Positions 1,160-61,703 of a DNA stretch of 64,000 nt are shown here, piece after piece. Source of the stretch: Amoebophrya sp. A120 (taxonomy: Eukaryota > Protista > Dinoflagellata). The stretch covers positions 5,287,038 to 5,351,037 of the forward strand of contig CAJINV010000005.1 in assembly GCA_905178155.1 (NCBI GenBank), given 5' to 3'. The notes beneath the pieces were generated by a model. The model was not told the DNA's origin and made no database searches. It saw only the letters and a program-made list of their open reading frames with translations. A program made the position numbers and the translations under genes. Each line of letters opens with the position of its first letter. Position 1 is the stretch's first letter.

Positions 1160-2151
1160 ATGGCAGATACACCGGCAGCAGATGGGGCCACGGCCTCCAC
1201 GCAGCAGCAGCAACAGGAGAACACCAGCCGGGGGTTGCTGCAAGCGGATTCTAGCGGTGGCGCGCCGCAAACGGAGGGCGTGGATCCACGAGGGTTCCTG
1301 ATGAAGTGCTGTTTTCCCGTCTGCACCATCTGGGCGTGGCAGGGTTGCGATGACTGCTTTCCCATCCTCTGCACCTGCGTCCTCGACTGTTTTTTTCTCG
1401 GGTGCCTGTTCCCGCTGTTTTGCTGGAAGCCCGGCCCGCAGAAGATTTGGAAGGCCGACCCGGAACAAGAGCGCAAGGTCTGTTTATCCTGACGAGTAAA
1501 AACGTCCCCACACCAGAGTCAAGATGGGAAATCTGCTAGACAAATTAGCCAGCTTTGGTCGTTTCGCATGACAACTCTGTCCTCGTAGTGTGATCCTGTT
1601 GAGGTAGTTCAGAAGCATCACAGATCTAGCATATCACGCCGATTATAGCATCACAAATTTGAAAACGCCGCTCGAAAATGCTTCTCATGGTGCTCCGCAT
1701 GAGAAGCTTTTGTGGCATGCAGATTTGCATGACAACTCTGGGCCTGGGGTGGGAACGTTTTTACACAGGATACTGTTTCTGGGCCTGTCACCCGCTGAGT
1801 TGGCCCTGCAAGCTTTTGTGCTGCTTCGTCTCCGTCTACGCCTGGCAGGGCTTTGACGTGTGGTACGACTTGTTTTTTGCTTTGGACCTCGAGTTATGCA
1901 TTGCAAAAGCATCGTACTAGTAGAAGTCGCATTACAAATTCGGCCAGCATGACAAATGGAATTTGTCATGCTGTTTTGCCTTGAAAAAGAGTAATGCATA
2001 AATGCAATTACTACGAGTACGATAGTTTTGCACAGGATACGAGTGCTTCTACACGCTTTGTTGCTGGGTCCCGCGGAAGCAGCAGAAAATATGGGGCGCA
2101 GGGTCGACCGTGGTGGGCGCGCCCATTATGGGCAACTACGGGACGGTTTGA
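1160..2151 (+). CDS. Cysteine-rich protein with two internal CCF-x5-WQG-x-D repeats; 3 exons
   Basis: Removing 1485-1772 and 1895-2039, each with one 5-nt repeat, gives an open frame MADTPAA...KCCFPVCTIWAWQGCDDC...KVCFWACHPLSWPCKLLCCFVSVYAWQGFDVW...LECFYTLCCWVP...NYGTV*. Confidence 0.8.
1485..1772. mobile_element. Introner family B (TIR TATCCTG..AAAAACGTCCCCAC)
   Basis: TIRs at both ends, flanked by CTGTT/CTGTT; removal restores the frame. Confidence 0.9.
1895..2039. mobile_element. Introner family A (TIR TATnnnnTGCAAAAGTATCGTACTCGTA, about 145-175 bp; the most abundant family)
   Basis: Flanked by CGAGT/CGAGT. Many siblings, e.g. 4987-5134, 14101-14249, 17322-17469, 37579-37727, 53093-53241. 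Confidence 0.9.
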
Positions 2152-2806
2152 AGTCCAACAGGAGGGTGAAGTTTTCATCTTGTAAACCTCATCTTTTACT
2201 AGAGAAACAGCAAGTGCAGCATGCATTTTTCCTGTATATTAGTACAAGCCTTGAAGATTATAAATATCTGTACGCCAGGTGCTGGCGCGCATGATGAATC
2301 GGAGCCGGAGGTACGTCTAAATGCGTAGCGTTCGTTTCAAATGTATTTTTTTACAGCGGCATACTTTGCCTATTGCTATTCATTGTTGAGAGTTTATTTT
2401 ACTGCACGTTTATCATAAATTTTATTTTGTTTACATTTTGCATTTTTTGCATATAGATATACTTACATTATTTTTTGGACGTACAACAAGCCTTTGGGCA
2501 AATTTTAATTTTTATTTTACACACGCAGAAGTCGAACACGTCAGTGTTGTAGTGCTAAGAAACAAGAACTGACGCCTGGTGAGTCATAGGCTTTCTCCTT
2601 GAACTTGATAAGACTCGCTTACATTTTTAATATCTTCGTTTTCATATAATATCACTGCGACTGCCCCCCTCCAGCTCCACAGCGAAAGAAGAAGAAAACT
2701 CGAACTACCCAGACGAGCAAAATGAAACAAGACTGTGAGCAAAACCAATCCCCAAGATACTTCTAGGAAGGTTTTTTCATACTTTGACCATAATATGACT
2801 TAGTAT

Positions 2807-4789: not shown

Positions 4790-6621
4790 CCTGATCGGGG
4801 AAGAGGACGGCGTTTTGCCCAAGATGCAGATCCCGAAGGAAGACAGCCGTGCGTTGGGCGCCATCCTGGTCGTCCTGGCGCAAGCGATCGTCAATCTCTG
4901 GATTTTCTCGGTGTGGACCTGGCGGTTTAACAAGCAAACGCCCTTCCGCGCCCGGAATTCGCAGTCCCTGCTGCAAGAATTTCAATTATGCATTGCAAAA
5001 GTATCGTACTCGTATAAATACATTACAAATTTCCTCAGCATGAGAAATAAAATTTGTAATGCTGATGCACCTTAAGAAAAACGTTTGTAATGCATGATCG
5101 CAATACGAGTGCGATAGTACTTTTGCCCAGGATATCAATCCTACGGCTACGATTTGGAGGTCATGAAATGGACGGGCTTCGTGAAACTCTTCTGCGCGAT
5201 ATGACGGTGCACAAGAACTACTCCCCCTCCGCCTCATTTGTATAATTACGTAAACAGCAATACTGATGCAAACACCCGCACATCATGTGGAGCCTGCGCA
5301 TGACAAGTTCATCTTCTTCTGCCTCGTGTAGAAGTACTACTGGGCTACTTCCGGAATCTGTCATGCAAACAGTGCCTTGCATATTGGTGTTTTATTGCAG
5401 GACAAATGAGGCAAAGGGGGGGCTGTGCGCTTTCATACGCGACGCTCCTCCCCATCGCGATCATGAACCCGGAGTACCCCTTATGCAATGTAAATTTCCT
5501 GTACATGTACAAAATGCATGACAAATTTCGCTAACTTGCAGTGTCCAACTTGTCATGCTAGACTAGGACTGAAGGCAACTTTTGTCATGCAGAGACTGCA
5601 TTTGTACGTGTACGGGAAATTTACTGTGGATACCCCTGGCTCCTGATTTTCTCGTCCGGGGTCCTGTTTCTCCTGATGGTGATCGCGATCGTGTCGCACG
5701 TGCGTGTGAAAGATCCCTGGGTCAAAAACGTACCGGCGTTGGTCATGGCCGTGCTGTCCCTGGCCAGCCTGTTGGGTTTAAAGGAAAACTGCGTCTACAT
5801 GCCGGACTACGCGGAAGATTTCTCATCTTCGTCCGCAGTTTCGTCTACAACTTCATCTGCAGGGACAGCAACAACGACTTTCAATTTGGCTAGTACTTCG
5901 AGCGGGACCACGATATTAACATCTTCAGCCCCAACATTGATGAAGCATATGCAACTGACGCAAGGACGAGGAGGACCAAGTGCTGGTGCTGCAACTACTA
6001 GCCAGGCGTTGGCCGCTTCTTTACCTGCTCCAGGGGGTGTATTATTCACAACGAGCGACGTGGTGGTACCTCCAGCTCCAGGTGACAATGTAGCAGTTGT
6101 ACAGCAACATGTTTTTCAACACAACGAGGACTTTCTGAACCGGCTGGTGTCCCAGGACGGCAGACTGGTAATCGGCTTAACACTGTTGCTACTGGACTTC
6201 GCGATGCTGTTCTATGCGAAGTTTGTGGGACGGAAGTACGCACAGGTACCGAAGTATGGAAGCGTCAGGATTGAAATTGTCAAAGTTGAGATAACTTGTA
6301 ATGCATAAAATCGATACCAGTTGGAAGCCCAATTTTCAAGCGGTGCATGACAAATTTTCCGAGCACCGGAATCCAATTTGTCATGCTGTTTGGGCACAGA
6401 CGCCTGCTTTTGTCATGCTACTTTAGCAGCTCTAATATTTCAAACACTAAGCAGGCTGCCAGTCGGCCTCACTTGCCATTCCAGCAAGACAGGCATTTTA
6501 TGCCTTGCATTTTATGCATGGCAAATCATTTCAACTTTGCCGATTTCAAACCTGACGCTTCCATACGAACTCGCCGGACAACCCGTTCTTTGCCCTCGTG
6601 GAAAGTAACAGCAGAGTCTGA
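4767..6621 (+). CDS. DoxX-like membrane protein with low-complexity C-terminal extension; 5 exons
   Basis: Spliced protein: IVNLWIFSVWTWRFNKQTPFRARNSQSLLQEFQSYGYDLEVMKWTGFVKLFCA...MVIAIVSHVRVKDPWVKNVPALVMAVLSL. This resembles bacterial DoxX_2 proteins (WLxRFNKxTPYR...EFxxYG...HxKxKDP). Introners at 4987-5134, 5200-5437, 5482-5632 and 6255-6565. Stop position is less certain. Confidence 0.7.
5200..5437. mobile_element. Introner family E (TATGACaGTGCACAA..CCCCCTC)
   Basis: Flanked by CGCGA/CGCGA. Siblings at 28290-28507 and 48589-48818. Confidence 0.85.
5482..5632. mobile_element. Introner family G (TATGCAATGTAAATTTCCTGTACA)
   Basis: Flanked by CCCCT/CCCCT. Sibling in the opposite orientation at 37273-37438. 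Confidence 0.85.
6255..6565. mobile_element. Introner family H (TATGGAAGCGTCAGGATTGAAAT)
   Basis: Flanked by CGAAG/CGAAC. Sibling in the opposite orientation at 59377-59682. Confidence 0.85.
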
Positions 6622-7381: not shown

Positions 7382-9934
7382 ATGTCGGCGTCCTCGTCAT
7401 CTCGAAGTTTCTTGCCAGCCGCGTCGAAACTGCTGCAGGCGACGCAATCTTCTTGCTACAACAACCCTAGAATTTTTCTCGCTACGGCGACGCGTACGAG
7501 TGCCAGGACAACAAGTGTGAAGAACTGCAGGAGGCAAGATCAACAGGGCCGCGGTTCTTGTGGGAGCAGCACATCCAGCAGCTCCTCAAGTGCCTCTACT
7601 TCTACTCTCGTAAAGGTAAAAAACTGCCCAGCGGGTGAACTACACGTAGGTCAACATCAAACATCAGGTCGCACACAACTACTTCGACCGCAGGGGTGGC
7701 CGCGGCCCACCGATTCTGATCCGCAGTCGACGCCACTTTTTGATGTTTTTCCCGGAACAGGTAGGTCTAGGTGGCCAGAAGAACCGGTTGCAATGGCTTA
7801 CGGACATCAAAATCTCTTCCGACCCGCGACCACGCACCAGAGGACCGGCTCTCTCGTAGTTTTCAGCCACGGTCGCGGGGACAGCACCAGGAGCAGTTCA
7901 CTTGTTCATCATCCCAGATTTTTCCATCATCGTCCTGCTCCCATCAGTGCTGGGAGAAGCAGAGCACAACAACTTTCACTGTCACAGATGCGAGCTTTTT
8001 CATCATCTTCTTCCCCTGCGAAGGTGAAAGTGATGTGGATTTACGAAAAGGACGGCCAGAAGATAGGGCCCTGTGAGGTGAAACCGCACCAGACCATGTT
8101 GGACTGCGCACACGACCACGACATCGAAATAGAAGGTATACGATAGGAACTGAAAGGGTCATGCTAAAAAAGCTTGTCATGCGAAACGAGGACATGATAC
8201 TTATCGATATCCACACAAAAAAAAATGCTGAGTGTTCTGATGCGCACCATGATCTTCATGCGTGGTCTCACATCAATATCATACATCATTCATCATTTGA
8301 TCAGGTGCCTGTGGAGGCAATGCTGCCTGTTCGACGTGTCACGTGTACCTAAGCGAAACGGATTACAACAAATTTCCGGAGCCTGATATGATCCGCTCAC
8401 ACGCGACAATCTCAAGCGTTACAATAGAATAGTGAAAATCTGTGATGCAAGAGGTGCGTGATATCTAGCCAACTCTCATAGAATTGCGCATGACAAGTTC
8501 GTCCGGAGGCCGCAACCGCACTACAACCTGGCGAGATCTGTGTTGCAGCAAGTGGAATGCTTTCCGAGTCTGTCATGCTCGTCACGCAGTACAAAGTCCA
8601 GACTCTATTGTAACAGTTGAGATTGTAACGTCTGAGCAGGTCACACCTGACGAAGACGAGCTGGACATGCTGGACCTGGCCGCGTATGAATTGCAAAAGC
8701 ATCGCACTCGTATATGTAATCATGCATTACAAATCCTGTTCTTGAGGCAAATTAGCATTACAGATTGGGGAGGGGCAAATTAGCATTACAGATTTCCCGG
8801 CGGGATATAAGTTGGGGAGCACTGATAGATAAAAAGGCAGCATGCACAGGGGAGAGTGGCCCCTGTTGCAATGCTGACCTATAAAGAAAGACAAAGATCA
8901 CGCAGATCCGTTTTTTACAAGCAAACGACCCACGCATTGCGGGGCGGGATCCGTATCGTGAAAGATCCAGTAGCTTTTCTAGTCTATGTTGTGCCCCTTA
9001 CTAGTTTGCCGTCGAGTAGAAGTAGAGCTGATTTTATTGCAATTGCCGCCTTTGCGATATTGTTTAGCGGACCCCGCCAAAATACCCTCATGCGTTTCCC
9101 GAGTAAATCAGTTGCAACTAGAAGCATCCCCGTCCTGCTTCGGCACACCCCATCTACCTAGTCGCTCCTGGGTAGATGTGGGGATTTTTTGTCTGGGCTT
9201 CTTTCTGCTTAATTAATCTGACAGGGGCTGCGTCTTTTTTTTCTGCCTTGCCAGCAGAGTATGTATGAAAGGGGGGGATTGACGGAAGTGGCGCGAGACC
9301 TTGGTGCTGGAGCAGAGGACAAGAGTGGAAATGGTACAAACAAAAAACAAGCACTAATATACCCGCGCCATCTGCTTAACTGTGTGAATTATTGTGTCGG
9401 CCCGGTACTGTTTAGTCGCAGGTCGGTGTCCGTGAGATCAGAATTCACATGTTAAGTAACGCACACCGGCTCCTAGCTTAAAAAAAGTGATGAATTTATA
9501 TGCGAATGGGGCCCAATCAAAAAAAAAAAAAATTAGCATTACAGATTTTATTTCTCATGCTGAGGAAATTTGTAATGCATTTACTACGAGTGCGATACTT
9601 TTACTTTTGCACTGGATACCGCGGGCCTGAAAGAGGGCACCAGCCGCCTGTGCTGCCAACTCCGCGCCAGGCACATACAAGACCAAAGCAGCGGTGGAAG
9701 CGGCGGGGCTCCTGCTGCACCGGAGACGTATCCAGTGCAAAAGTATCGTACTCGTAGTGATTGCAATTATGCATTACAAATCTCCATGCCAAGGTGAAAC
9801 AGCACCACAAATTCCATTTGTCATGCTGAAGTAATTTGTAATGCAATTACTACTTCTAGTACGATGCTTTTGCAATGCATAACGCGCTAGTTCTAACGAT
9901 ACCGAAGGAGACAAACAACTTTTTCGACATGTAG
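7382..9934 (+). CDS. Mitochondrial 2Fe-2S ferredoxin (adrenodoxin type) with long Ser-rich N-terminal presequence
   Basis: Spliced protein: DIEIEGACGGNAACSTCHVYLSETDYNKFPEPDEDELDMLDLAAGLKEGTSRLCCQL...LVLTIPKETNNFFDM*, which has the C-x5-C-x2-C...C motif. GT-AG intron at 8136-8304; introners at 8387-8645, 8685-9618 and 9729-9881. Confidence 0.9.
8796..9532 (+). mobile_element. Poly(A)-tailed SINE/retroposon-like insert nested in a family A introner
   Basis: About 720 bp with no convincing ORF, ending in an A14 run; flanked by AAATTAGCATTACAGATTT repeats. Confidence 0.75.
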
Positions 9935-14260: not shown

Positions 14261-17200
14261 ATGGCGAAACAGGGACAACAAGGCGACCCGATCGACGGTG
14301 CGAACCCCAACAGGGAAATTCCGATCACCGATGCAAACGCTGCTTTGCTCGGAGGGGACAACATCAAAGGAGGTGCCGCACCCGCAGGCGGCTCTGCGCC
14401 CAGTCCACCTGTCGACAACGGGCAGCAATCTACTTCCGTCATGACCAATACAACCGAGGGACCACTGACCTTTGATCAAGTTGTATCGCAGGAAAAAAAT
14501 GTCTTTTCTATGCTGATGACGGTTTTATTTTTGCACAATGTTAATGTCTATGTGCTGCATGAGATGATGCGCACTCATCTGCTCTCTACATCGTTCTTTC
14601 ATCTACTTCTGCCTCTGCTGCAAAAATACAAGTCGCCGACCTTCCTCTCAAAAGTTAAACATTTTTTTTTCTGCGATAAGCCGCGTTAAAGCAGCAGTAC
14701 GACCGGGAAATGAAGGCGGATGTGGACAAGCACCACATTGAGGTCATCGAGCGAGATCTGCCTAGCTACAAGATCAACAACGGTGTGAACGAGGGGAAAA
14801 CTGGATTTCCCTTCGAAAAGGACCACGAATTCCCGGGCGGTAAGATGAAAAATTTATGACCAACATCGACAACTTTGGATTGATTGATGTGTTTGTGGCA
14901 CCAGGACCAGACGAGGACGAGATGGCCATGGTGTTTAGGTGTTCCGGCATGACAAAGATCATTAGCGAATGTCTTTTGGCATGACAAAGACTGTCAATCT
15001 CTACAACTGGCCAGGTTTCTACGTGGACACGGTAATCCGCACCGAGAAGGACCGGTGGACGATTTACAAGGGGCACTATCAAATGCAAATATGTCTGGGT
15101 CCTCTGGAAACTTGTGATGCTGGTGGTGGAGAGAGACGAGGACACTTCGATTGACTGCAAAGCATGACAAGTTTTGAAGGAGCTGCAGTGCTGTCTAAAT
15201 TCCATGACAAAGTGAGCTCCTGCATGACAGAAAAGTGGGGCTACTTTTGGGGATACACGTGCATGACAGACTTGAGAGTCACGCTCGCGAAGCATGACAA
15301 ACCTTGCATCTTCGTTCCAGACCTCCCAGACATATTTGCAGGTGATAGGCACGTTTTCGGAACTACGGACTACTGGGACTTATGTGTGGTTTACGTGCAG
15401 AGGGTGGATCCGAATTTTGTCGGCTCCATGCCCAAAGTGGTATACTTACAATGAACTGGTGCGGTTCATAATCTAATTTGCTTTACTTGGATGTTGTAAA
15501 GCGCTACTGGATGATGGATGTTGAAGATGTTCATGATAGCATGTTGTGTACTAGTCCGTCGATGCTAAAGTGCAGTGGTAAGGAGCAAGGCTGCAACAAC
15601 TTGGGCGGTCCCCATTGATTTGTTCAGGATTGCTATCCAAGAAAAAAAGTGTGTAAGTGTAACCTTTTTGCAGTAACAGCATTACAGATTTGTTTTGCAT
15701 GACAGAGAAAACCTGTCATGCGTAGCTAGTACGCGAAAACACGTATGAAAATAGCCTCTGATGCACATCCAGCATGAAAAATGTAACTGTATTGCAACGT
15801 CTGCAACACAATAAAGCTGCACTTACGCTGCAGTTTTTTTCTTGCATAATTGCGGCTTTCTCCGACCCGTGGTCAGCCGGGAACTGGTGCAAAATCCGTC
15901 CGATGTTTACCCCAACGAAGCCCCCTACTGCGTCCTGCTCTCCGAGAAGGAAGACACGTGGTACCAGGGCAAGCAGTACCGGTTATCAAGAAGGAAAATC
16001 CTCCCTCGTCCGCCCCATATCAAAACGGAAATCTGTGATGCAGATTTGTGGCCACAAATCAGCTTTGTCATGCTAGAAAGGAGAGAAAAGATGTGCAGAA
16101 AGTGCTTCCTCGCCCACCCCCCGGGGAGGGGATCCTTGACCTGTGGCGCTGGGAGCGGGTGTCCACTACGTGATGATGATGATGATGATGACTGCAGTGC
16201 TGTGCGGCGTGAGAAGGCCTCGCTCCATGTTGAGCATGACAGGAGGCAGCTGGAAGTGGGAAACAGCGTGACAAATTGTCTGCAAACGAGGCCACGACTG
16301 CCGCTTTTGGCCTTCTAGCAATACAACTCGATTTGTGTACTCATGTACCGCATGACAAATTTCGTTTTCGATATGGGGAGGGGGGATTTTTCCTTTTGAT
16401 GCCGGTATTCCGCATGGCAGTTTTTCCAACGCGTTCCGAAGTTCCAGCCGTCCTTTCGCCCGCGGGAAACTTTCGAATCCGGACAATTGCCGGGCGTGTA
16501 TAATTGTTTCTGATAGAAGTGCTGATGTACTTTCGACGTCTTACTTTTACGAACACATTCTTGCTACCGAACAAGTTGTGATGTCCCATCATGTTGATAC
16601 GACCATGTTGTGGATGTGGTTTCAGTTTCTGGGAAGTAGGAATAGCTTTGATGCCATGCAAGATTTTTTCAGCATGATTTGATGCACGACGTACAAAAAA
16701 TACAACGACTGGTCGATGTTGATAATGTTAAAAACACGACAGGAAATACCGTTTTGAGAAGTTCCTCGGGCGGGGCACGTACGGCGAGGCCTACCTCGGT
16801 ATTCGGCTAACGGACAATCGCCCCGTGGTGATCAAGGTTCTGTCGGCAAACCCCAAAACCTCCGCGCACACCGATATCCACCGGAGAAAAAGTTTCCTGG
16901 TTGTGCAACTACTCTTTTTGCAACAAGCAGAGCATGGTCATCTCCAAATTCTGGTTGCAGGATTCGGATTGCATTTTCACCACAGATGCTGCGATCATGC
17001 CATCCTAGTGCTCGTCCGTACCCTGTGCAGTCGCATGTAGCTGCTGCACCAGGTTTGTGTTTGTCACAGAGACTGAGAGAGTAGAGATGTGTATATTAAT
17101 GCACTTTTATTTGTTTTCTAAATCGAAGTACGCCAGCTTGAGACTTTTGTAGAGCATAGCCGACAAGGGCCCGCAGGTGGTGTTCGACAAGCCAAAACAA

Positions 17201-37046: not shown

Positions 37047-38319
37047 ATGGAGTTCACCGCCGACCAAATTGTATCCACTGCAAAAGTATCGTACTCGTAA
37101 TATTGCAATGATGCATTACAAATCTTTCCCTTAGGGTAATTCAGCATTACACATTTTATTTCTCATGCTGAGGGAATTTGTAATGCATGACTTTATACGA
37201 GTGCGATACTTTTGCTTTTCATAAATTGACGAGTTTAAGGAGGCCTTCGCGCTGTTCGATCGCGATAACTCCTACGCACTGTAAATGTCCCGTACACGAC
37301 GTACAAATGCAGTCTCTGCATGACAAAATTGGGCTTTGATCCTAGTTTACTAGCATGACAAGTTCAAGTGTTACGCTCCAAATTGGTGAATGAAGTTGTG
37401 ATGCATCTCGTATATGTACGGGAAATTTGTATTGCATAACTCCGGCACAATCACGGCAGACGAGCTCGGCGTGATAATGAAGTCGCTGGGGAAAAATCCC
37501 ACCGATGACGAGCTAGAGGCGATGATAGCGGAGGTAGACGAGGACGGCAGTGGCGAGATCGAGTTCCCGGAGTTTCTGTATGGATTGCAAAAGTACCGTA
37601 CTCGTATAAATGCATTACAAATTTCCTCAGCATGAGAAAAAAAATTCGTAATGCAGATTTGCCTTGGAAACAAGATTTGTAATGCAGGACCTGCATTTAT
37701 ACGAGTGCGATACTTTTGCACAGGATATTCTGGCGTTGATGTCAAAAAAACTGCAAGCAGCAGACAGCGTGGAGGAGATGCGAGAGGCGTTTCTCGTACT
37801 GCTTAGACTGTTGTAATTTTCTTGTCATGCAAGGTGGCAGGACGCAACATGGTAGGGTTGCTTTGTCATGCGTATATTAATGCAACATACAGCATCTCAT
37901 ATATGTATATGAATCAAAAAAACAAGGTGTTCGACCGAGACAAGTCCGGTTCAGTAACAGCAGCGGAATTGAAGCACGTGATGAATAACCTCGGAGAAAT
38001 CGTGACTGACGACGAAATATCAAATGCAACAGTTTGATGAAATTGAGTCGCAATGTCGATGCTGCATGACAAAACTTCACTCAGCAATTAATTTACTTGG
38101 GTAAGTAGTTGTACCACAAAGGCAGTTTGCACTCAGTTCCTGTAAAATATAAATGCACAAATGCGAAGTGGAAAGATGCAGCGCGATTCCCATTATTCTG
38201 TTCTTGCAGTGAGTGCATATTTCGTTGAGGAGATGATCCGAGAAGCAGACGAGGACGGTGACGGGGAGTTGTCGTTCGACGATTTTCTTCAGTTCATCCG
38301 AAGAAAAGGACTGATTTGA
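37047..38319 (+). CDS. Calmodulin-like protein with 4 EF-hands; 6 exons
   Basis: Spliced protein: [74 protein letters not shown]...[23 protein letters not shown]...[15 protein letters not shown]. Introners at 37072-37223, 37273-37438, 37579-37727 and 38018-38219; GT-AG intron at 37796-37926. Confidence 0.93.
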
Positions 38320-46708: not shown

Positions 46709-46726
46709 ATACTGGAGTGGAATGGT

Positions 46727-51081: not shown

Positions 51082-54000
51082 ATGTACCTTGCTTCGGGGG
51101 AAAACGTAGACGCCAACTCGGATACTTCCGATTCGTCCGATGTGGAGGACAGCGAGGCAATCGCGGCGAGCCGGCGACTCCAGTCCGCGCCCCCGATGCA
51201 GTTCATGTACGAGAGAAGGTCGGAGTTTGAGTCCCCCCAAAACTTCCTATCAAATGAAAATATGTCTGGGTCTGGGAGATTCTGAAACTTACTTCTCATG
51301 CACGTTTCGCATGGGCCACGATGTCTGTGATGCATGCCGTAGCTTCACAGCTTTTTCGAGGGGTTCTTGATGCCTATTGCGCATGACAAATGCCCTAACC
51401 GCGTAGCAAAAATTGCATTCCCTTTGCTATTCATGCAATACAATTTTTTTTGGAATCCAAATGCAGCATCACAAGTTGCATTCTACTTCCAGGCCCAGAC
51501 ATTTTTGCATTTGATACTTTCGAACACCCGACGAAACGAAAAACAGCAGTTCTGGCGGGACGGCGTCTTCCCCTGGAACGAGCAAGATATGAATTGCAAA
51601 AGTATCGTATTCGTATTGCAATCATGCATTACAAATCCTTTTGTTAGGGTAAATCTGCATTACAAATGTTATTTCTCATGCTGAGGAAATTTGTAATGCA
51701 TTTATACGAGTGCGATACTTTTGCAGACGATACAAGAAGAAGAGCAACAATAATTCGCCGTCGAAAAAGAACAATCTGAGTAAAACGCCGCAAAGCGGCG
51801 GACCGACCGTAGGAGGCAATGGAAGTCGAGGTATAGCAGGTGTTTGGATTTCCAACCAGGAGTGAAGTGTTATGTTACGTCTATAAAAATCTTGATGGTG
51901 TATGTTCTTGTTCTAATATCACGATGCGACAAGTGCGAATGGTCTGGTGCAACCTACTGCAGGAAATGGAAATACAACATCGCATATAATTGAGCCGTCC
52001 TTTACTTCAAACTGCATATACAGGTGGAAATAACGGCCGGAAGCTGTCTACCCAGCACGAATCAGACGATGAAGATGAATCCGAACAGGAAGAGCTTGTC
52101 CGTCACACTGCACTATCAAATGCAAAAGTGTCTCGGTCTGGAAGAATGTAACTTGTGATGCTGCGTTTGGATGTCTAACAAATTTGTGTTGCGTGAGCAG
52201 CAAAAGGATTCTAATTTTTGCTACGCGGAGGGCATTCGTCATGCGGAATAGGCATCAAGTTTAAGAATCCCTCAAAAAACCTGTGATGCTATGGCATGCA
52301 TCACAGACATCACGGCTCATGCAAACCGTGCACGACAAGCACAAATCTCAGAATCTTCCAGACCCAGACACTTTTGCATTTCATATGCACCAATGACCTA
52401 TGCAAACCCCCAAAGGACAACCCCAAAGTCGTTTTCAGGTCATCTAGAAGGTGGCATCAATGCGGCGAGACAAAAAGCAAAATCGGAATATCGGCACCCA
52501 GGAGCTCCTGCAGGTGCCACCGCGGCCCAGGGAGGAGGTTCTTCTACACCGTCTTCGAAGAAAAACAAACAAAACGCGCAGAGTACGTCGTACCAGTTGA
52601 GCTCCCCGCCAAGACAAGACCGTGGGATCGTGTCTATGCCGTCCGAAGATCATGCTGGGGTGTATTCTCTCGACGGTCATGGAACAGCCGCTATCAAGAG
52701 AAAAAGTGTTAACGTTAACGGTTTTCACAGATAGCAGTCATGCGTCGCAAATGTAGCTCAATATGCATGCTATGCATGACAAATTTAGGCACGTTTTGTG
52801 ATGCATTTCTGCATAACGAATTTCGATAACGTTAACACTTTTTCCTGTGATAGCCGCGACCATGTCGATGCCACCCGGGATGATGATGAAGATGTCGAGA
52901 GCAGGTGGAGTTGCACAAGACAAGTCAACACCGAACAAGTCAACAGCTATAACTCCTACGTCCGGGAAAAAGAAGGTGAATCAAAAGCAAAGCACTAGCC
53001 CGGTCGTGACCAAAGCAGGCGCTGGAAGTGCGACAACTTCAAGTCCCTCTAAGATGGGCAACAAGAAGAACAACAAACAGCTGCAAGGAACTTATCCTGT
53101 GCAAAAGTATCGTACTCGGATAAATGCATTACAAATTTTCTCAGCATGAGAAATAAAATTTGTAATGCTGATTTGCCTTGACAAAGAAATTTGTAATGCA
53201 AGACCTGCATTTATACGAGTACGATACTTTTGCACAGCATAGAACTACACTGACGTCGATGCAGCCCACCAGCTACAACAGTGCAACAGTAACGTACTAG
53301 TATAAATTGCATTACAAATTGGCTCAGCATTACAAATTCAATTTGTAATGCTGATTTACCTTGAAAAAGAGTTTTGTCATGCATAAATGCAATTAGTACG
53401 AGTGCGATACTTTTGCACAGGATACCAGCTACAACAGTGCATCAACCGGGGCGGGCGAGAGGAAGGAATCGGACGAGAGCGTCGGTTATCCTGTGCAAAA
53501 GTATCGTACTCGTACTAATCGCATTCATGCATTACAAATGTCTTTCTGAACTCAAATCCGCATTACAAATTTTATTTCTCATGCTGAGGCAATTTGTCAT
53601 GCGATTTATACTAGTACGATGCTTTTGCATTTCATATCGGTTCGTTTCTCCGCCAAGAAAGCCGCCAGGATTCGGAGATCATCATTCCCGGGCGGAAAAT
53701 GTATTCCGAATTTTTCCCCGGCAGGGTAAAACCTGTGACGGAAGGGCACCCAAAACACCAGCAGCAGCTGACGAGGCAGCAGCGGGCGGAGCGACGACCA
53801 AGTAGGAAAGTCCCGGGGGAACCGGGAAAATTGAGTCCGGGAGGGAAGATAAAGATTAAACCAGGGGCGCAACATATCCCACGAAAAAACTGGTTCACCG
53901 TCGTGATGATCTTGCAAGATCTGCATCACAAGTTTCTTACACATAACACAGAAAATTTGCCATGCGCGCTTCCCAAGTGAAAACACGCGGAAAAATCCAG

Positions 54001-57000
54001 TGTCTTGCAGGTGTAGCAAGACAAATCGTTCTGTGCTCCATTCTCTGCATCGCAAGTTCACACGTGAAACAGTTTTTTCGTGCGATACAACAAGTCTCCT
54101 CTACAACGTCCAGCGACGTATCAAATGTAAAAATGTCTGGGTCTGGAAGAATGCAACTTGTGATGCTGAATTTGGATTCCAAAAAAATCTGTATTGCATA
54201 AGCAGCAAAGGGAGTGTAATTTTTGCTACGCGGAGAGGGCATTTGTCATGCGGAATAGGCATCGCGAGGCCCTCAAAAAATCTGCGATGCTAGGGCATGC
54301 ATCACAGACATCAGGAGTCATGCAAAACGTGCATGACAAACCTGGCAATCTTCCAGACCCAGACATTTTTACATTTGATACGACGACACGGCGAACCAAC
54401 GAGCCACAGTGGCGACGATGGGAGGTGGTCACGACCCGTATCCTGTGCAAAAGTATCGTACTCGTAGCAATCGCAGTCATGCATTGCAAATCTCCATCCC
54501 AAGGTAAAACAGCATGACAAATTCCATTTGTCATGCCGAGCTAATTTGTATTGCAATCACTACTAGTACGATACTTTTGCAGTTCATGACCCGAACAGGA
54601 GAACAACGATGGGCGGCGCGGTGAACAAATTCCGACAGCAACTAGAGGAGCAGCTGGGTAAAGTGAACAATGACGGGGAAAGCACAACCAAGTCGAAAAA
54701 ATCGACCGACAGCTTGTCCAGGACGGTTTCCGGTGCGAAGAAAAAATCGTCCGCTTCCCGGTCCACGCGGAACAACAGCCGTATGAAAGCCTCAGAATGG
54801 AAATCCTCAAAGTGGAAATGATTTATGATGCATGAAATGCGACGCAAAAAAGACTGTATTGCAGAGCACGCAATGGAGGCCGACTATTGTCCTGCTAGGG
54901 GTGAAGAATTGGAGTGCTGCTTTGCACGACAGAAGGGCACCCCCTTGCCTTAACCTGCATGACAAACATGCTGTAAGTGCCCGGAAAATTTGTCATGCGC
55001 CGACTACAAATGCCGCTTCAACTGGAGTCGTTTATTTGCATTACAAAGTATTTCCACTATTGAGGATTTCCAACCTGAGGCTGTCATAAGCCGGTTTTCC
55101 GATAACCCGCCACCCCCACCGGCTTTCCAGCCGCCGGTAGACATGGATCCGCCACTGTTCCGGATGAACTCGATAAACCCGACGGGAGTGGTGATTGCAC
55201 CGGGGGAATTGGATTATCCAGGTATAGTTGGAAACTTTTTAACGATGACAATGTAAAATTAAATACTTTTCGGGATGATCAAATTATGTCTTACCGGAAC
55301 AAGATTTTTTCCCCTCCTCGTTCGTGTTTGTGCTGTCCTCTGCTTCTGCATGTACACAAACCTTCCTCATTACACAAAAACGCATGCAAATACTTATTTA
55401 TCACCCTCTTTACGACAACAGCCACCTCGATTCCGACGGTCCTAGTGCCCATCGACATCGCGAACCAGCCAAAGGTGCTGATGCCCATCGATAATAACGG
55501 GACCTACACCGAAGCGGTCCCCGTGCTGATGTCCTCTGATTTCGCCACCCCCACGACCCTATGCAGTGCAAAAGTATCGTATTCGTACAAATGCAAGTCC
55601 TGCATTACAAATTTTTTTCTTAAGGTAAATCAGCATTACAGATTTTATTTCTCATGCTGGGGAAATTTGTAATGCAATTTGTACTACTACGATACTTTTG
55701 CAGTTCATAGACCCCCATCAATGCAGCGGCGTCCCCGTTCATCCCCCACACGACTATCAAATGCAAAAATGTCTGGGTCTGGGAGATTCCGAGATTTGTC
55801 ATGCAGTTGTTCCAAGCTCCCCCACGTCTGAAGTGCAGGGCCTAGCATCAGAGGTTCTGCAGCTCCTTGGTGATGTGTATTCTGCATGAGAAATGCCCGC
55901 TCAGCATCGCCAGAAGTGGGCACCTTTCGCACGTTATGCATCACAGGTCTTTGTGGGATCCAAAACACGCATCACAAGTTCGAATCCTTCGAGACCCAGA
56001 CATATTTGCACTTGATAACGACTGGCACCCCGCAATTGCTGCCGTTCGCCACGCCAACCAGTAGCGGTCCGCACGCGATCAACACTGGTGGAGGGACAAG
56101 TACTACTACTCCCGCGTTTTCGCTCGTGTCAGGAGGTGGAGGAATGAATGCCGCAGCAGCGGAGTTCACGCCGCAGAGTGGTGCGAACAATAATGCGATC
56201 CTGGGCAACGTGAATGCGAGTATGTTGAGCGGGGGTAACATGGACCTGCAAATGGACGACACATCAACCGCGAACATTACCGACGGCTCGGGCTGGGTTG
56301 CAAACAATACTAGTTTCAACTCTCAGAGTAAAACTGGCTCGGCGTACAACAACAATAAAGGTGGAAAAATGATGAACAGAAGCAGTGGCGGAAAGGGGAA
56401 TTACAACAATCAGAACGCCATGGGAGACGGCGGCCAACCAGGCAGCTGGATCAACAATAACAGCAACGACAACTACGGGAATAACTATTGGGGCGGTAAT
56501 GCAGCTAATCAGGACCAGCAGAGGGGCAGCGGAAACAACCAATACACGGCCTACAAGGGCAGTGGCAATTACGAGTACGACCCCAATGTTGACCCAGGGA
56601 GTTATAGTGCGTCTTACATGGAAACAAACAACCCGCAAGGTGGTCCGTTGAACACCAAGGGGACATCAACGACAAACGGGTACAACAATAGCTACGCTGC
56701 TGGTGGTATCCCCCAGAAAAAGACCGACAGGTCATATTTGTAATGCAAAAATAAATAGATAAAAAAATCTGTATTGCATGCCCTAAACAGGATGTTATGG
56801 CCTCGCCCATGACAGATTTTCCTGTGTATTTATTTTTGCATTACAAATATGACCTGTCGGTCTTTTTCTGTGGGATAGGTGGTGGTGCAACCTCTTCCTC
56901 ACAGCAGAACGCTGGAGCAGGTGGTGGCAAGAAGGGCTACAACTATTCCGGGCAGAAGCAGCCCCGGAACAAATACGGGCATTTGGTCGTGCAAAACCAA

Positions 57001-60000
57001 GACCAGCGGCAAAACCAAAACCTCCAGCGGGATACAACGTCGAGTGCAGACCTCAATGTATCCCACGAAAAAACTGTTTCACTGTGATGATTTTGCAAGA
57101 ATCGCATCACAAGTTGTTTGTGACACATGAGGACACAGAAAATGTGTCAGGCGCGTTTTTCCCATAGGGAAAAACACGGTTGGAACTCCAATGCTCTATG
57201 CAGGTGTAGCAAGACAAATCGCTCTGCGCTCCATTTTCTGCATCACAAGTTCACAGTGAAAGAGTTTTTTCTTGCGATACAATGCCGCGCAGATGTATTC
57301 GGTTTTTTCCCCGGGCACCGGCGGTTTATCCTACGTAAAAACGTCCCCACACCATAGTCAAGATGGGAAATCTGCAACATAAATCTCCAAGTTTTGGAAG
57401 TTCTGCATGACAAGTTTCCATCTGCAGTGTAGTGCTGGTTAGCCAGGAAAGCCGCATGAGAAAGCCATTTACTCATTCTGTTTACAGCATTACAAATTCC
57501 AAAACACGACTGGAAACGCCTCTCAAGGAGATGCGCGCTACAAATGTTCCTGTCATTGCACATTTGCATGACAACTCTGGGGTCCGCCTGCGCCTTCGGT
57601 GTCCGCCTGACCTACCCCCCCTGCGTGTCAAGCCATCTGCGGCCTGGGGCAGAGGGGGGGGGGCAAAGTGTGCTGCAATTCCTTTAGCATGACAACTCTG
57701 GGGTGGGGTCGTTTTTACACAGGATACGGCTTTCACCGGAGTTACTCGGCTTTCAACAAAAACCAGAAGGACTACGTCCAGGGAGCGGATGGGCAATACT
57801 ATCCGCAAAACAACTACATGGGAGGTGGTGGGGATGATGCCGGATCTTCATGGGGAGCCGGGTACCAGCATCCCCAGGGGAATTACAACGCGAACTGGTA
57901 TGGAGGGACCACGAACAGCAGCTACAACCAATACGGGAATCCAAATCAGCCGGGGCTGCACAACAAGGGTTACGGGAAACACCAGCAACAAGGTAAAAAC
58001 TACCCTGCGAGCAACCAGCTCGCAGTACCACCGTCGGCGGCGACCAAGCCACGCGCTTCCTCCTCGAGTTCAGCGACGACAGCGCAGCTGACGAACAAGC
58101 AGCTCTCCCACGGGACCGCGGACACACCCACAAGGCGGAGAAAACACCACGCACCGAAGCTGTCAAAAGCGAAAAAGCTGGAGCGGCTGGCTACGCATTG
58201 CAAAGCAAGTATCGTACTAGTAGTAATCGCATTACAAATTTGCCCGGCATGAGAAATGAAATCTGCCATGCTGTTTTGCCCTGGGACGTAGATTTGTAAT
58301 GCATGCTTGCGATAATTACTACCTACGAGTGCGATACTTTTGCACAGGATACTAGCGCACGTGGCGTGGCACGCAGAGGCGACGAGTATGGGGTGGCTAG
58401 ATGAGGACACCATGATATGAATTGCAAATGTGTCTGGGTCTCCTGGAAGCTGGTAACTTGTCATGGTAAATCTGAAGCATACAAAAATCTGTGTTGCATG
58501 ACTGCCAAAAGCAGCTCTTCACTTTCGACCAAGGTGGGAGGGAGTTTGTTCTCATGTAGGATAGGCATGATAGGGATCTCGTCACAGAATGTCTGTCATG
58601 CTAGGTCCCGCATCCCAGACCTCATGGGTCATGGAAAACCTGCATGACAAGTTTACGCTCTTCCAGACGACCCAGACATAATTTTTGCATTTGATACATG
58701 AAATTCGTGAAGCACGACGCGTTTCACGGCAGGTTATCGGCGCTAAGCGAAAATATGAACTGCAAAAGTATCGTACTCGTATAAATGCAAGTCTTGCATC
58801 ACAAATCTTGTTCCCAAGGCAAATCAGCATTACAAATTTCATTTCTCATGCTGAGGAAACTTGTGATGCATTTATACGAGTACGATACTTTTGCACAGCA
58901 TAGAAAATCACGTGCGGCAACATGGGGTATATATGCAAGAAAAAAACTGTGTAAGTGTAACTCTGTAATGCAGAACATGCAACAGAGCTACACCTGTCAT
59001 GCCAGACAGCCATGAAGTCCTCTGCTCAAGTGTGTTTTCCCTTACAAGCCACGCATGACAGGTTTTCTCTGCCATGTAGAGCAAATTTGTGATGCTGTTT
59101 CTCAAAGAAAGTTACACTTACACACTTTTTTTCCTGGATAGTATAGGATTTTGCGACTACAACCTAACAAGGATTGTCATTCGGTTTTTTCGTTCTGTTC
59201 CTCGCCAAGGGATGAAGCGGAACGAAATACTTAAATAATACAAAGTGTAGAAGTCGTGTTTTATTTGAGCTCCTCAGTACTAGAACTTGTTCGTGATGAA
59301 GAAAACGTCTGCAATTTGAATTTTAGTCACAGTGACTGCATTAAGACAAAAGCAAGACTACTAGTACAGCACAAATTATGGATGTGTCAGGATCGAAATC
59401 GACAAAATCGAAAAACTTGTGATGCGTAAAATGTAGAGCACTGAAGGCCTGTCTTGGGGCGCAGGCATATGAGGCCGATTGTAAGCCTGTTTAGGGGTAT
59501 GCAATGTGCTGCCAGAGTAGCATGGCCGGAGCAGTCTTCTTTGTCCAAACAGCATGACAGACTGCATTTGGGTGCTCCCGAAATTTGTCATGCGCCACTT
59601 GAAGACTGAGGCTCCAACTGACATCGATTTTGTGCATCACAAATTTTTCGATTTTGTCAATTTCGATTCTGACGCTCCCATACAAATTCAAAAAATTGAA
59701 ATTGTATCAGGTCCACCGCTACTGCGTATGCTGTGCAAAAGTATCGTACTCGTATAAATGCAGGTCTTGCATTACAAATTTCTTTGTCAAGGCAAATCCG
59801 CATTACAAATTTTATTTCTCATGCTGAAAAAATTTGTAATGCATTTATACGAGTACGATACTTTTGCAGTTCATACTGCGTCTCATTTCACCAAGTGCAC
59901 CACAAAGCTTTGAGTAATGCGGACGGAATATGGATTGCAAAAATGTCTGGGTCTGGAAGATGTCATGCTGTTTTTGCATGACGCAGAAGGTCTGGAATGG

Positions 60001-61703
60001 AAGCTCTAGCATCACAGATTTCGAGAAGGTTCTGCAATGCCTAATCCGCATGACAAATCCCCCACTTTGGTGACAAGAAGTGGGCATCTTTTGCTGCCTA
60101 TGCATGACAGATTTGTCTGTGTTGTGAACTGCGCATCACAAGTTCACATCCTTCCAGACCCAGACATTTTTACATTTGATACGGAATGGGCTTCGTGTTT
60201 TCCTCCTTGCTGCCCTGTACGAAGAATATCCAGAAAATCAAGTCGATTTTTCTGAACAAGAAGGGCCAGGTATAGTAAAAATAAATCGATCTGCTGAGCA
60301 GCGGTCGTGTATCCTCTGATTTTGCCAAACGATATGAACCGTAAATGCTGTGAGTCGTGCATGAGAAACACATTTTGAAGTGCATGGAAAAATGCATGAC
60401 AAATCATAATCAAATACTATGAACACCAGATCATGATCCGGCGAGAGAAGGAGCTCAACAAATGCATCATCCCGCTGGAAACGGACGACCCGAACGCACA
60501 CACCACCGCAGAAGGCCACGAAAAATCGAAGCACAGCGCAGCGATCGTCGACCACGAAACCAAATCCTCCTCCTCTGCGGACGGAGAAGATCATAGGAAA
60601 AACGCGCCCAGCACCTCGAGCGACACCGGAAGAGCCATCCCCTGGAAGGAAAACACGAGGCTGCACATGCAGATTGACCTGGACAACTACAAAGTGAGCT
60701 TTTGGCTCGAGGAAAAATACGAAGAAGATACGGACGAATACCACGCGACGGATGTGCCGGTGCCGGAGGATGCGGTATTATTTGATGCAATACAAATGTA
60801 TTTGATGCAATACATTGTATTGCATCAAATACAAACAGACAAATGGGATAACCATGTATTTGATGCAATACAAATTTGTTCGACGGACAAGTTGAAATTT
60901 ATACATACACATCAGATCACCGTCGATTACCGTTCCTACTTCGACCTAGAACAAGACGACCTGTCCCAGGGTTTTCTCACCATTGTGCTCAAATCCGCGG
61001 TATGCATTGCAAAAGCCTCGTACTAGTCTAAATTGCATCACAAATTTTGGCAAGAAGGTTAGTGGAATTTGTAATGCTGTTTTCCCTTATGAAAAACATT
61101 TGTCATGCATATTTGCAATTAGTACGAGTGCGATACTTTTGCAGTTCATACGCGGGCGCTGGTGCGAGATTTGTGTCGTACGACAACCTCACCCCCAAGC
61201 CGGAGTTGCCCGCCGACCCCCAGCACGACATCGAGGAGCTGACGACCCCGACGGTGTCCTCGAACTTGGGCAACAAAACGCCATCCGGGGCAGCGGGTGC
61301 AGAAAACAAGAAGAAGAAAACAAGACGGAACAAGAAGAAAAACGCGGCTGCGAATTCCGCCGGAAACTCACCAACGAACGGGGCGGTGAACAAGGATGAT
61401 GAGGACGAAAACACGAAACCGACGGATCACGCAACGTTTCTCGGCGAGGTCAGCGGGGAGGTGATTGAACAGTTGGAGGACAGATTATTGACGCAGTCGA
61501 AATCAACAAGGAAGAAGAAAACGACTTCTGCTGGTGGTGGTGGTCCAAAAACCGCTGGTGCTCCTGCAGCTGCCGGCTCAACCACGTCGTCCGTGTCAGT
61601 AAGCAAGTCTTCGCCAAGCAAAAAGCCCAGTGAGGCAGCTACCTTGTTGGACCAATCTCCCGGGAGTGGCAGCACTGCGGATTCTAGGACGGCGGACGCT
61701 TGA
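51082..61703 (+). CDS. Large low-complexity (N/G/Q/S/P-rich) hypothetical protein with a globular C-terminal domain; about 24 introners
   Basis: Exon fragments join in frame where checked. C-terminal domain FHGRLSALSENHVRQHGVHRYCVSF..ADGMGFVFSSLLPCTKNIQKIKSIFLNKKGQI resembles a motif I recall from dinoflagellate hypothetical proteins. Could be more than one gene. Confidence 0.6.
56707..56877. mobile_element. Single-copy introner with a ~50-bp TIR
   Basis: TATCCCCCAGAAAAAGACCGACAGGTCATATTTGTAATGCAAAAATAAATA and its near-exact complement; flanked by GGTGG/GGTGG. Confidence 0.85.
57584..57686. mobile_element. 103-bp GC-rich insert nested in family B introner 57327-57726
   Basis: Flanked by an 18-bp duplication GCATGACAACTCTGGGGT; absent from other family B copies. 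Confidence 0.8.

What the first reader, a model, noticed from the sequence alone, without database searches (positions are those of the whole stretch)
1485..61150. Shared GCAT(G/T/C)ACAAA motif arrays inside every introner family
Seen: families with unrelated TIRs and bodies each carry several copies of GCATGACAAA, GCATTACAAA or GCATCACAAA and their complements (TTTGTCATGC etc.). They occur in both orientations, often just inside each TIR, and are scarce in exons and intergenic DNA. The 109-bp element at 34891 is little more than TIRs plus these motifs. Inference: this is a common protein-binding code, either transposase subterminal sites or a factor marking the element for splicing.
Basis: partly seen in the sequence, partly recalled or inferred. 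Interest (0 to 1): 0.8.

Follow-up and report, generated by a model that had tools for sequence, protein, structure and literature searches.

The report
Phased motif pairs across parasite introners
Small jumping introns of otherwise mostly unrelated sequence in this Amoebophrya-like algal parasite carry the same 9-letter DNA word, nearly always as a same-direction pair three DNA turns (31-33 bases) apart, which is likely the landing pad for one shared, still unidentified jumping machine rather than a splicing signal, because old copies that have lost the word are still cut out of the RNA.

Summary
Of 144 exact GCAT[GTC]ACAAA copies, 135 lie in 92 intact TAT...ATA elements with 5-bp target duplications, 1 in exons and 1 intergenic. 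The real motif is GCAWBACAR. All 92 intact elements carry two or more sites, on both strands equally.

New here: the sites have a fixed geometry. Same-direction pairs 31-33 bp apart occur in 12.1 of 14 window families (null mean 1.9) and in 231 of 303 copies from a second assembly. Opposite-strand spacings of 14, 18 and 36 bp also recur. The 109-bp element is two TIRs plus one pair.

Corrections: the TIRs share a terminal consensus (TATS....GCAAAA), and decayed elements with 0-1 site are still excised precisely in transcript contigs. One register, N-TAT...ATA-NNNN, fits all 10 junctions checked.

Best reading (0.62): a double-stranded-DNA binding code for one shared transposition machine, with splicing using the ends. 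A host intron mark stays possible (0.2), because GT-AG introns are also enriched for the motif.

The elements match published Amoebophrya A120 introners; I found no description of the internal code. New variant of a known kind.

The parts
1485..61150 (.). Span of 92 intact TAT...ATA introners (109-934 bp) with 5-bp target duplications. Starts by family. A (~149 bp, 33 copies): 1895, 4987, 8685, 9729, 14101, 17322, 24749, 26506, 26727, 26975, 30891, 31750, 32818, 37072, 37579, 39241, 39528, 40828, 42537, 42756, 43921, 44918, 45720, 51588, 53093, 53274, 53487, 54439, 55560, 58192, 58754, 59727, 61001. B (~262 bp, 26): 15077, 19638, 20590, 20923, 21273, 25129, 25479, 25823, 30560, 32082, 35352, 39757, 41497, 41808, 43596, 44608, 45930, 46334, 47856, 48167, 51248, 52114, 54119, 55755, 58416, 59929. 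C (7): 1485, 27563, 30004, 31424, 35664, 41159, 57327. D (5): 15984, 20244, 26146, 27909, 32385. E (4): 28583, 47268, 53875, 57059. E2: 15634, 58932. E3: 31104. E4: 52692. E5: 56707. E6: 34891. F: 6255, 54782, 59377. G: 5482, 37273. H: 5200, 28290, 48589. I: 17551, 29268. I2: 8387.
   Evidence: TSD exact in 71 of 92, one mismatch in 18, two or three in 3
34891..34999 (.). Minimal 109-bp element (E6): long TIR plus one same-direction pair (10-mers at 34927 and 34959, 32 bp apart) with a degenerate opposite half-site between them
   Evidence: 3 of 4 copies in the second assembly keep the 32-bp pair
35664..35942 (.). Family C example: six sites, all on one strand, in three pairs spaced 31, 33 and 31 bp (centres at element positions 37/68, 116/149, 198/229)
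27909..28222 (.). Family D example: three pairs spaced 33, 32 and 32 bp (48/81, 149/181, 232/264)
53487..53636 (.). Family A example: sites 46>, 77>, 95<, 113< (31-bp pair plus 18/18 module)
39757..40018 (.). Family B example: pairs 45</76< (31 bp) and 184>/216> (32 bp), divergent 14-15 bp neighbours
56707..56877 (.). Family E5: palindromic element with two 31-bp pairs (37</68<, 104>/135>)
52692..52852 (.). Family E4: 32-bp pair (54>/86>)
31104..31318 (.). Family E3: triad 145>/163</177> (18+14 = 32)
58932..59140 (.). Family E2 example, inserted at the 5' end of a predicted GT-AG intron (58927-59710): 31-bp pair plus 18/18 module
28583..28800 (.). Family E example: 31-bp pair (37</68<)
54782..55088 (.). 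Family F example: pairs spaced 31, 33 and 33 bp
5482..5632 (.). Family G example: 38>, 74<, 106< (36 + 32)
28290..28507 (.). Family H example: 51>/83> pair (32 bp)
17551..17786 (.). Family I example: four sites but no 31-33 bp pair (the exception; 0 of 10 copies in the second assembly have one); excised in transcript contigs
16875..17158 (+). Decayed TAT...ATA intron with no motif site; skipped as element + 5 nt in transcript contigs
18192..18421 (+). Decayed TAT...ATA intron, one weak site; RNA junction unambiguous (skips 18191-18425)
18748..18969 (+). Decayed TAT...ATA intron, one site; skipped in transcript contigs
19079..19277 (+). Decayed TAT...ATA intron, one weak site; skipped in transcript contigs
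38018..38219 (+).
40334..40604 (+). Decayed element with family-A-like left end and no good site; removal + 5 nt is part of the excision set that gives a 1300-codon frame; empty site in the paralogue
   Evidence: no RNA joint seen
14484..14678 (+). Decayed TAT...ATA element, one weak site
   Evidence: no RNA joint seen
14840..15014 (+). Predicted GT-AG intron without TIR that holds a perfect 32-bp pair (14947, 14979)
   Evidence: in-frame when removed; not RNA-checked
37796..37926 (+). RNA-supported GT-AG intron without TIR with two near-perfect same-direction sites 41 bp apart
19324..19485 (+). RNA-supported GT-AG intron with one perfect and one weaker site
60270..60429 (+). Predicted GT-AG intron with two good sites 35 bp apart and a CCAG repeat at its borders, possibly an old element that landed in a proto-splice site
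60775..60915 (+). Predicted GT-AG intron with repeated GCAATACAA sites
8136..8304 (+). Predicted GT-AG intron with one near-perfect site

Best explanation
The shared GCAWBACAR word, set in same-direction pairs 31-33 bp apart, is likely a double-stranded-DNA binding code through which one shared, as yet unidentified transposition machine would grip all these short TAT...ATA elements, while their removal from RNA likely relies on the ends and not on the word. Shown: motif, enrichment, conservation, spacing grammar, shared termini, 5-bp target duplication with empty paralogous sites, and excision of motif-poor copies from transcript contigs. Inferred: (1) a transposase or a TnpA-like helper binds the paired sites cooperatively on one face of the helix (31.5 bp is three turns), with optional opposite sites at 14, 18 and 36 bp, and helps assemble the two ends of a 109-320 bp element; (2) a DDE-type catalytic domain cuts at TAT/ATA and inserts with a 5-nt stagger; (3) only copies with intact pairs breed, so motif and spacing persist while family bodies drift apart; (4) after a copy dies the motifs decay, but TAT...ATA is kept because the splicing machinery cuts at N-TAT...ATA-NNNN, removing the element plus one target copy.
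For: Geometry: same-direction 31-33 bp pair in 12.1 of 14 window families (family-weighted; null mean 1.9, max 5.7 of 2000; best-window null mean 4.2, max 6.4 of 200; four nested copies and seven decayed ones left out). It is in 231 of 303 copies from a second assembly, in at least half the copies of 15 of 16 families, and in two further families absent from the window. Conservation: core 0.92 vs spacer 0.79 and variable position 0.79, mean of 10 families; pair spacing within 1 bp of the mode in 85-100% of copies. Strand-blind: 232 + / 227 - sites; family C copies with all sites on one strand occur in both directions; families A and B insert 17/16 and 12/14 relative to transcription. No compensatory change between opposite sites (A 49 of 128 vs 58.6 expected, 68 of 124 vs 68.5; B 35 of 95 vs 33.4). 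One shared terminus and one TSD length point to one enzyme. Four decayed introns with 0-1 site are skipped, as element + 5 nt, in one unbranched contig in each of 4 runs (2 samples, 1 study); 3 of 5 RNA-supported GT-AG introns have no site scoring 8 or more. Precedent: cooperative transposase binding to MITE subterminal motifs depends on their arrangement (PMC1636448, passages); TNPA binds CACTA subterminal repeats (PMC2613891, passages).
Against: No transposase or binding protein was found: no genome was held and the contigs behind the loci could not be searched. Farhat et al. report no putative transposase in A120 and take this to rule out general transposase-mediated mobilisation (PMC7789003 section 16). 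GT-AG introns with no TIR hold 10 strong sites in 2,567 bp (3.9/kb) against 6 in 38,008 bp of exon plus intergenic DNA, more than the decayed elements (2 in 1,603 bp); one predicted GT-AG intron holds a perfect 32-bp pair. A neutral relic should not outlast its TIR so often. Family I has no 31-33 bp pair (0 of 10) yet is multicopy. The 18-bp spacings are not whole helical turns. 178 of 435 sites pair with another site in predicted RNA folds. Contigs show presence of splicing, not its efficiency. The test for selection after insertion was inconclusive. The second assembly holds the same families (up to 96% identical), so it adds copies, not an independent lineage.
Confidence: 0.62

Rival explanations
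1. A host DNA-binding (chromatin or transcription-coupled) protein reads the paired sites and marks the stretch as intron, raising splicing efficiency in a lineage reported to lack U1 snRNA; elements carry the word because it makes their insertions tolerable.
For: GT-AG introns without TIRs are enriched about 25-fold over exons plus intergenic DNA for strong sites (10 in 2,567 bp vs 6 in 38,008 bp), including two in RNA-supported intron 37796 and a 32-bp pair in predicted intron 14840-15014. Two decayed introns keep their one site 50 bp from an end, near the modal 49 bp. U1 not detected and no transposase in A120 (PMC7789003). Strand symmetry and spacing fit any DNA-binding protein.
Against: Intron 16875 (no site) and three introns with one site are skipped in unbranched contigs; 3 of 5 RNA-supported GT-AG introns lack a good site. 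Exons are not depleted below Markov expectation (5 vs 3.9 at score 10). Site positions are tied to the element ends, as expected for end synapsis.
Confidence: 0.2
2. The word works in RNA, as complementary stems that fold the intron or as a site for an RNA-binding protein, for splicing or for an RNA-mediated way of spreading.
For: Both orientations occur; 178 of 435 sites pair with another site in minimum-energy folds; the motif is pseudo-palindromic.
Against: No covariation at the variable position in any tested opposite pair. The universal unit is a direct pair, which cannot form a perfect stem. Copies with all sites on one strand exist in both directions. A fixed 31-33 spacing over sequence-free spacers suits a DNA helix.
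Confidence: 0.08
3. The motif is a functionless relic: all families descend from one ancestral element and simply inherited the word.
For: Shared termini; residual similarity and matching layouts for A-G and E-E2.
Against: Spacers between most families are at chance similarity while motif and spacing are kept; within families the core is better conserved than spacers; the number and orientation of pairs differ between families. Common descent is plausible but needs selection to keep the word.
Confidence: 0.06

Closest known systems
Introner elements of Amoebophrya sp. A120 (Farhat et al. 2021, PMC7789003; Gozashti et al. 2025, PMC12130899)
   Same: IR starts with TAT, about 7 variable nt, then a run of A; short direct repeats at the borders; non-canonical junctions. 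Published A120 family lengths (about 149, 106, 252-261, 305, 160, 214-227, 278, 319, 811 bp; 20 of 58 supplement rows seen) match the families here.
   Different: In the parts I read, these papers describe ends, direct repeats and families, not an internal motif common to families, its spacing, or one splice register. They class most families as TIR DNA of unknown superfamily.
CACTA (En/Spm) subterminal repeats bound by TNPA (PMC2613891, passages)
   Same: A short motif repeated in both orientations inside the ends, taken as cis-determinant of transposition.
   Different: CACTA termini and 3-bp TSD are absent here; CACTA motifs differ between families, whereas here one motif spans at least 17 families; no fixed three-turn pair appeared in the passages read.
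Emigrant MITE and pogo-like Lemi1 (PMC1636448, passages)
   Same: Non-autonomous short element whose transposase binds subterminal motifs cooperatively and according to their arrangement.
   Different: [quoted passage not shown]
Euglenid nonconventional introns (review PMC11282704, passages)
   Same: TIR- and TSD-derived introns with non-canonical junctions at a fixed offset from paired end bases (+4..6 with -8..-6).
   Different: Here the paired bases are +2..4 (TAT) and -7..-5 (ATA); no internal motif array was mentioned for euglenids in the passages read.
Ginger / Copia-integrase-like DNA transposons (A120 family 38 in PMC12130899)
   Same: A120 has TIR elements with Copia/Gypsy-like ORFs; a 5-bp TSD is typical of such integrases (recalled), so they are a candidate driver.
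   Different: The paper says family 38 lacks Ginger termini and TSDs; I could not see its sequence, so whether it carries TAT ends or the motif is untested.

Membership tests
Amoebophrya A120-type introner | IR begins TAT, about 7 variable nt, then 3 or more A | tested here: met
   154 ends: T1 154, A2 151, T3 153, S4 154, A11-14 129-150 (these ends were called with TAT-like seeds); description
Amoebophrya A120-type introner | 3-5 nt direct repeat at the exon-intron border | tested here: met
   5-bp TSD exact in 71 of 92; single copy at paralogous empty sites, 5 of 7 with at most 4 mismatches in 30 nt
Amoebophrya A120-type introner | Removed from transcripts at non-canonical junctions | tested here: met
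   9 listed joints plus 1 inferred from lengths skip element + 5 nt; long frames restored in silico
Amoebophrya A120-type introner | Repeated, in families | tested here: met
MITE (non-autonomous TIR DNA transposon) | Short, TIR, fixed TSD, no transposase ORF | tested here: met
   Typical copies 109-330 bp; seven long copies listed for open frames only, not scanned for domains
MITE (non-autonomous TIR DNA transposon) | A cognate autonomous element with the same ends supplies the transposase | not testable with these tools
   no genome held; records behind the loci not held
CACTA / En-Spm | CACTA termini and 3-bp TSD | tested here: not met
   TAT termini, 5-bp TSD
CACTA / En-Spm | Subterminal motif repeated in both orientations | tested here: met
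   works-like only
CACTA / En-Spm | Element-encoded TNPA-like protein binds the motif | not testable with these tools
   no protein identified
Ginger / Tdd integrase-like transposons | TG(T) termini (recalled, from no call) | tested here: not met
   TAT termini
Ginger / Tdd integrase-like transposons | Integrase-related transposase | not testable with these tools
   the PF00665 search could not run on these records
Canonical U2 spliceosomal intron | GT...AG ends | tested here: not met
   18191-18425 reads GT..TG; the common register gives N-TAT...ATA-NNNN
RNA-stem signal | Compensatory change between paired sites | tested here: not met

The most novel reading that the evidence does not exclude
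A host-encoded DNA-binding protein, not a classical transposase, reads the 32-bp lattice and serves both to mobilise the elements and to flag introns on the DNA template in place of the missing U1. Any stretch that gains TAT...ATA ends plus one motif pair becomes a new self-copying intron family, which would explain the many unrelated families and the motif in ordinary GT-AG introns.
Probability: 0.17. Interest if true: 0.92.

Novelty: new variant of a known kind. Interest (0 to 1): 0.72.

Why it matters
How Amoebophrya A120-type introners move (no transposase was reported) and how they are spliced (U1 was not detected) are stated open questions (PMC7789003). This result collapses the many families into one system with one terminus, one TSD length and one internal code. 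It supplies a defined bait (the 32-bp pair, with spacing controls) to catch the protein, and a signature to find the autonomous element. It also separates a likely mobility signal (internal pairs) from a likely splice signal (N-TAT...ATA-NNNN), which makes both testable with existing genome and RNA data.

Tried and rejected
No whole genome was held, so genome-wide counts and a transposase search were not possible; a PF00665 search on the records behind the loci could not run.

Viral contigs: 0 matches to a family A end. 67 single matches to the pair pattern, most with 2-4 sites per 2-kb locus, treated as chance and not studied further.

No holder was on record as RNA; I treat X1-X4 as transcript contigs because they skip GT-AG introns exactly while X5 pieces run into elements.

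TSD mismatch as an age proxy: motif divergence 0.066, 0.063 and 0.089 for 0, 1 and 2-3 mismatches (349, 104 and 18 copies; 39 of 514 dropped for damaged ends; 4 more had 4 TSD mismatches and fall in no class). Inconclusive.

A universal three-site unit was rejected: the middle opposite half-site is in 6 of 17 families only. A strict 32-bp lattice counted from the terminal base fits the 109-bp element but not families A-D. No target-site base preference in 303 insertions. A first symmetric motif fit merged both strands and was replaced. My first GT-AG calls at 16498/16636/17053 and 28861-29073 were wrong and were corrected from RNA. The likeness to the Oct4-Sox2 composite element is recalled, comes from no call, and is taken as coincidence.

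Three look-ups of earlier findings returned nothing.

Literature searches: searches showed no paper on an internal motif in these introners. Not seen: figures (Farhat S19, S24, S25), files 13-14 of the PNAS 2025 supplement, 38 of its 58 A120 rows, the 2023 Current Biology version, and bioRxiv supplements; any of these may mention the motif.
Full report
What the window is. The window holds 11 gene stretches, all read on the + strand, including exons matching protein kinase, cactin C-terminal and EF-hand families. They are interrupted by short elements that begin TAT and end ATA. I called 99 elements: 92 intact and 7 decayed. The 5 bases before TAT are repeated after ATA, exactly in 71 of 92 intact copies. 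Removing each element plus 5 bases, and the predicted GT-AG introns, restores long frames such as 1300, 1489, 338 and 152 codons. Transcript-like contigs skip element + 5 nt at 9 listed joints, and two spliced lengths in the cactin gene match the model (558/558 and 560/560); a third (472 vs 431) was fixed by moving one GT-AG acceptor to 29114. A partial gene duplicate at 46819-49022 shows single-copy empty sites. The ends, direct repeats and family lengths match the published introners of Amoebophrya sp. A120. No whole genome was held.

The observation. There are 144 exact GCAT[GTC]ACAAA copies, 72 per strand. 135 are in intact elements, 1 in a broken one, 1 in a decayed one, 5 in GT-AG introns, 1 in exons and 1 intergenic; Markov expectation is below 1 per class. 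A fitted model gives GCAWBACAR, a pseudo-palindrome, with about 500 sites in element bodies. All 92 intact elements have two or more sites; 70 have the exact 10-mer. With motifs and termini masked, most family pairs align no better than shuffles (A vs B 29; shuffle maximum 29 of 600), but A-G, E-E2 and D/I-F reach 40-42 and may be distant kin. Lumping likely kin leaves about a dozen groups (my judgement from layouts and lengths).

The geometry. Site maps show a recurring same-direction pair 31-33 bp apart. Family-weighted, it is present in 12.1 of 14 window families; random placement gives 1.9 (max 5.7 of 2000), and the best 3-bp window under the null gives 4.2 (max 6.4 of 200). There, 231 of 303 unique copies have the pair, as do at least half the copies in 15 of 16 families and two families not seen in the window. 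Family I is the exception (0 of 10). Opposite-strand spacings are also quantised: convergent 18 and 36, divergent 13-15 and 45-47; 18 + 14 = 32. Outermost sites lie mostly 37-39 or 46-54 bp from the ends. Across 10 family alignments the core is conserved at 0.92, spacers at 0.79 and the variable fifth position at 0.79. Pair spacing stays within 1 bp in 85-100% of copies, against 44-100% for the somewhat longer end-to-site distances. The 109-bp element is near-palindromic, yet its two roughly symmetric sites point the same way in all five copies. Outside masked elements in the second assembly, strong sites fall from 18 to 0.63 per kb.

DNA or RNA. Sites are 232 + and 227 - relative to transcription, family C copies with one-strand arrays occur both ways, and A and B insert both ways. 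Opposite sites show no compensatory change, although 178 of 435 pair in predicted folds. A fixed three-turn spacing over free spacer sequence is what a protein bound twice on one face of a double helix would need; that step is inference.

Is it a splicing mark? In 16400-19620, one unbranched contig in each of four runs (2 samples, 1 study) skips two intact elements, four GT-AG introns and four decayed elements with 0, 1, 1 and 1 sites. So the array is not required for excision, though efficiency is unmeasured. An intron start one base before TAT, ending four bases after ATA, is the only register compatible with all 10 junctions; it is forced by 18191-18425 and, by contig-length inference, 38017-38223. 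The GT-AG introns here mostly start GTAT or GTAC, so N-TAT looks like a relaxed donor (inference). Against a purely transpositional role, GT-AG introns without TIRs hold 10 strong sites in 2,567 bp versus 6 in 38,008 bp of exon and intergenic DNA, and predicted intron 14840-15014 holds a perfect 32-bp pair. Only 5 of these 14 introns have an RNA joint. They may be old elements that became canonical, or the word may help the host. A test using TSD mismatch as age did not decide this.

Mechanism and odds. I favour one shared transposition machine that reads the termini for cutting (5-nt stagger) and the paired sites for cooperative assembly, with splicing using the ends (0.62). Rivals: host DNA-level intron mark (0.2), RNA-level code (0.08), functionless relic (0.06). 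The protein is unknown.

Comparison and novelty. Subterminal motifs bound by a transposase or helper are known for Emigrant/Lemi1 and CACTA, and the elements themselves are published. The elements fail CACTA and Ginger end tests, so they work like those systems without belonging to them. What I did not find in print is one internal word with a fixed spacing grammar shared by many non-alignable introner families, or the single splice register.

What I saw of each paper: PMC7789003 abstract, 12 passages, section 16 whole, supplement text search with no hit for the motif; PMC12130899 passages, supplement files 1-12 searched with no hit for the motif, 20 of 58 A120 rows; PMC1636448, PMC2613891, PMC11282704, PMC11453091 and bioRxiv 2020.10.14.339549 passages only. 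Figures were not visible and may show the motif. Verdict: real, new variant of a known kind, interest 0.72.

Noticed in passing
window 16870-19280, 37065-38224: One splice register fits all 10 element junctions checked: the intron starts one base before TAT and ends four bases after ATA, so the mRNA keeps four bases of the left target copy and the fifth of the right.
   Followed up: partly
window 39135-46708 and 46819-49022: Partial gene duplicate with a different set of introner insertions. It is bounded by a broken right end (46818) and a broken left end (49023) of a family-C-like element that share a short internal repeat, which suggests element-mediated duplication.
   Followed up: partly
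window 8685-9618: Family A copy with a ~790-bp insert that ends in a poly(A) run and is flanked by a ~18-bp duplication containing a motif site; looks like a retroposed insertion.
   Followed up: partly
window 57327-57726: Family C copy with a ~120-bp GC-rich insert flanked by an 18-bp duplication that also contains a motif site; 2 of 2 such cases include a site, which chance could give.
   Followed up: partly
window 16099-16192 and 29712-29800; L089 6184-6998: The same ~90-bp sequence with an (ATG)n tail sits inside two different elements. The long family I variant (695-815 bp) is itself multicopy (91% over 596 bp), and a separate 668-nt contig of run X1 matches 29372-29795.
   Followed up: partly
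window 53274-53424 and 39241-39399: One terminus has been overwritten by sequence resembling the exon flank on the other side (a 17-bp match at 53269/53425), as if by conversion or template switching; the reading frame is kept.
   Followed up: no
window 58927-59710: Predicted GT-AG intron that contains two elements, one inserted into its GTATA donor so that the donor is duplicated as the TSD.
   Followed up: partly
window 60775-60915: Predicted GT-AG intron built from direct and inverted copies of a ~17-bp unit containing GCAATACAA; may be another repeat family.
   Followed up: no
window ~2810-3890 and ~3890-4780: Diverged tandem duplication of about 1 kb of intergenic DNA; holds the only intergenic exact motif (4257), and the twin position near 3181 has one mismatch.
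   Followed up: no
window 38016/38224: In run X1 the contigs end and restart exactly at this motif-poor intron while three motif-rich ones upstream are crossed; run X3 appears to cross it. A single case that may reflect branching from retention or from paralogues.
   Followed up: partly
L081 7087-7392, L083, L085, L109; L077 4881-5122: Two element families absent from the window (about 306 and 242 bp) that follow the same spacing rules.
   Followed up: yes
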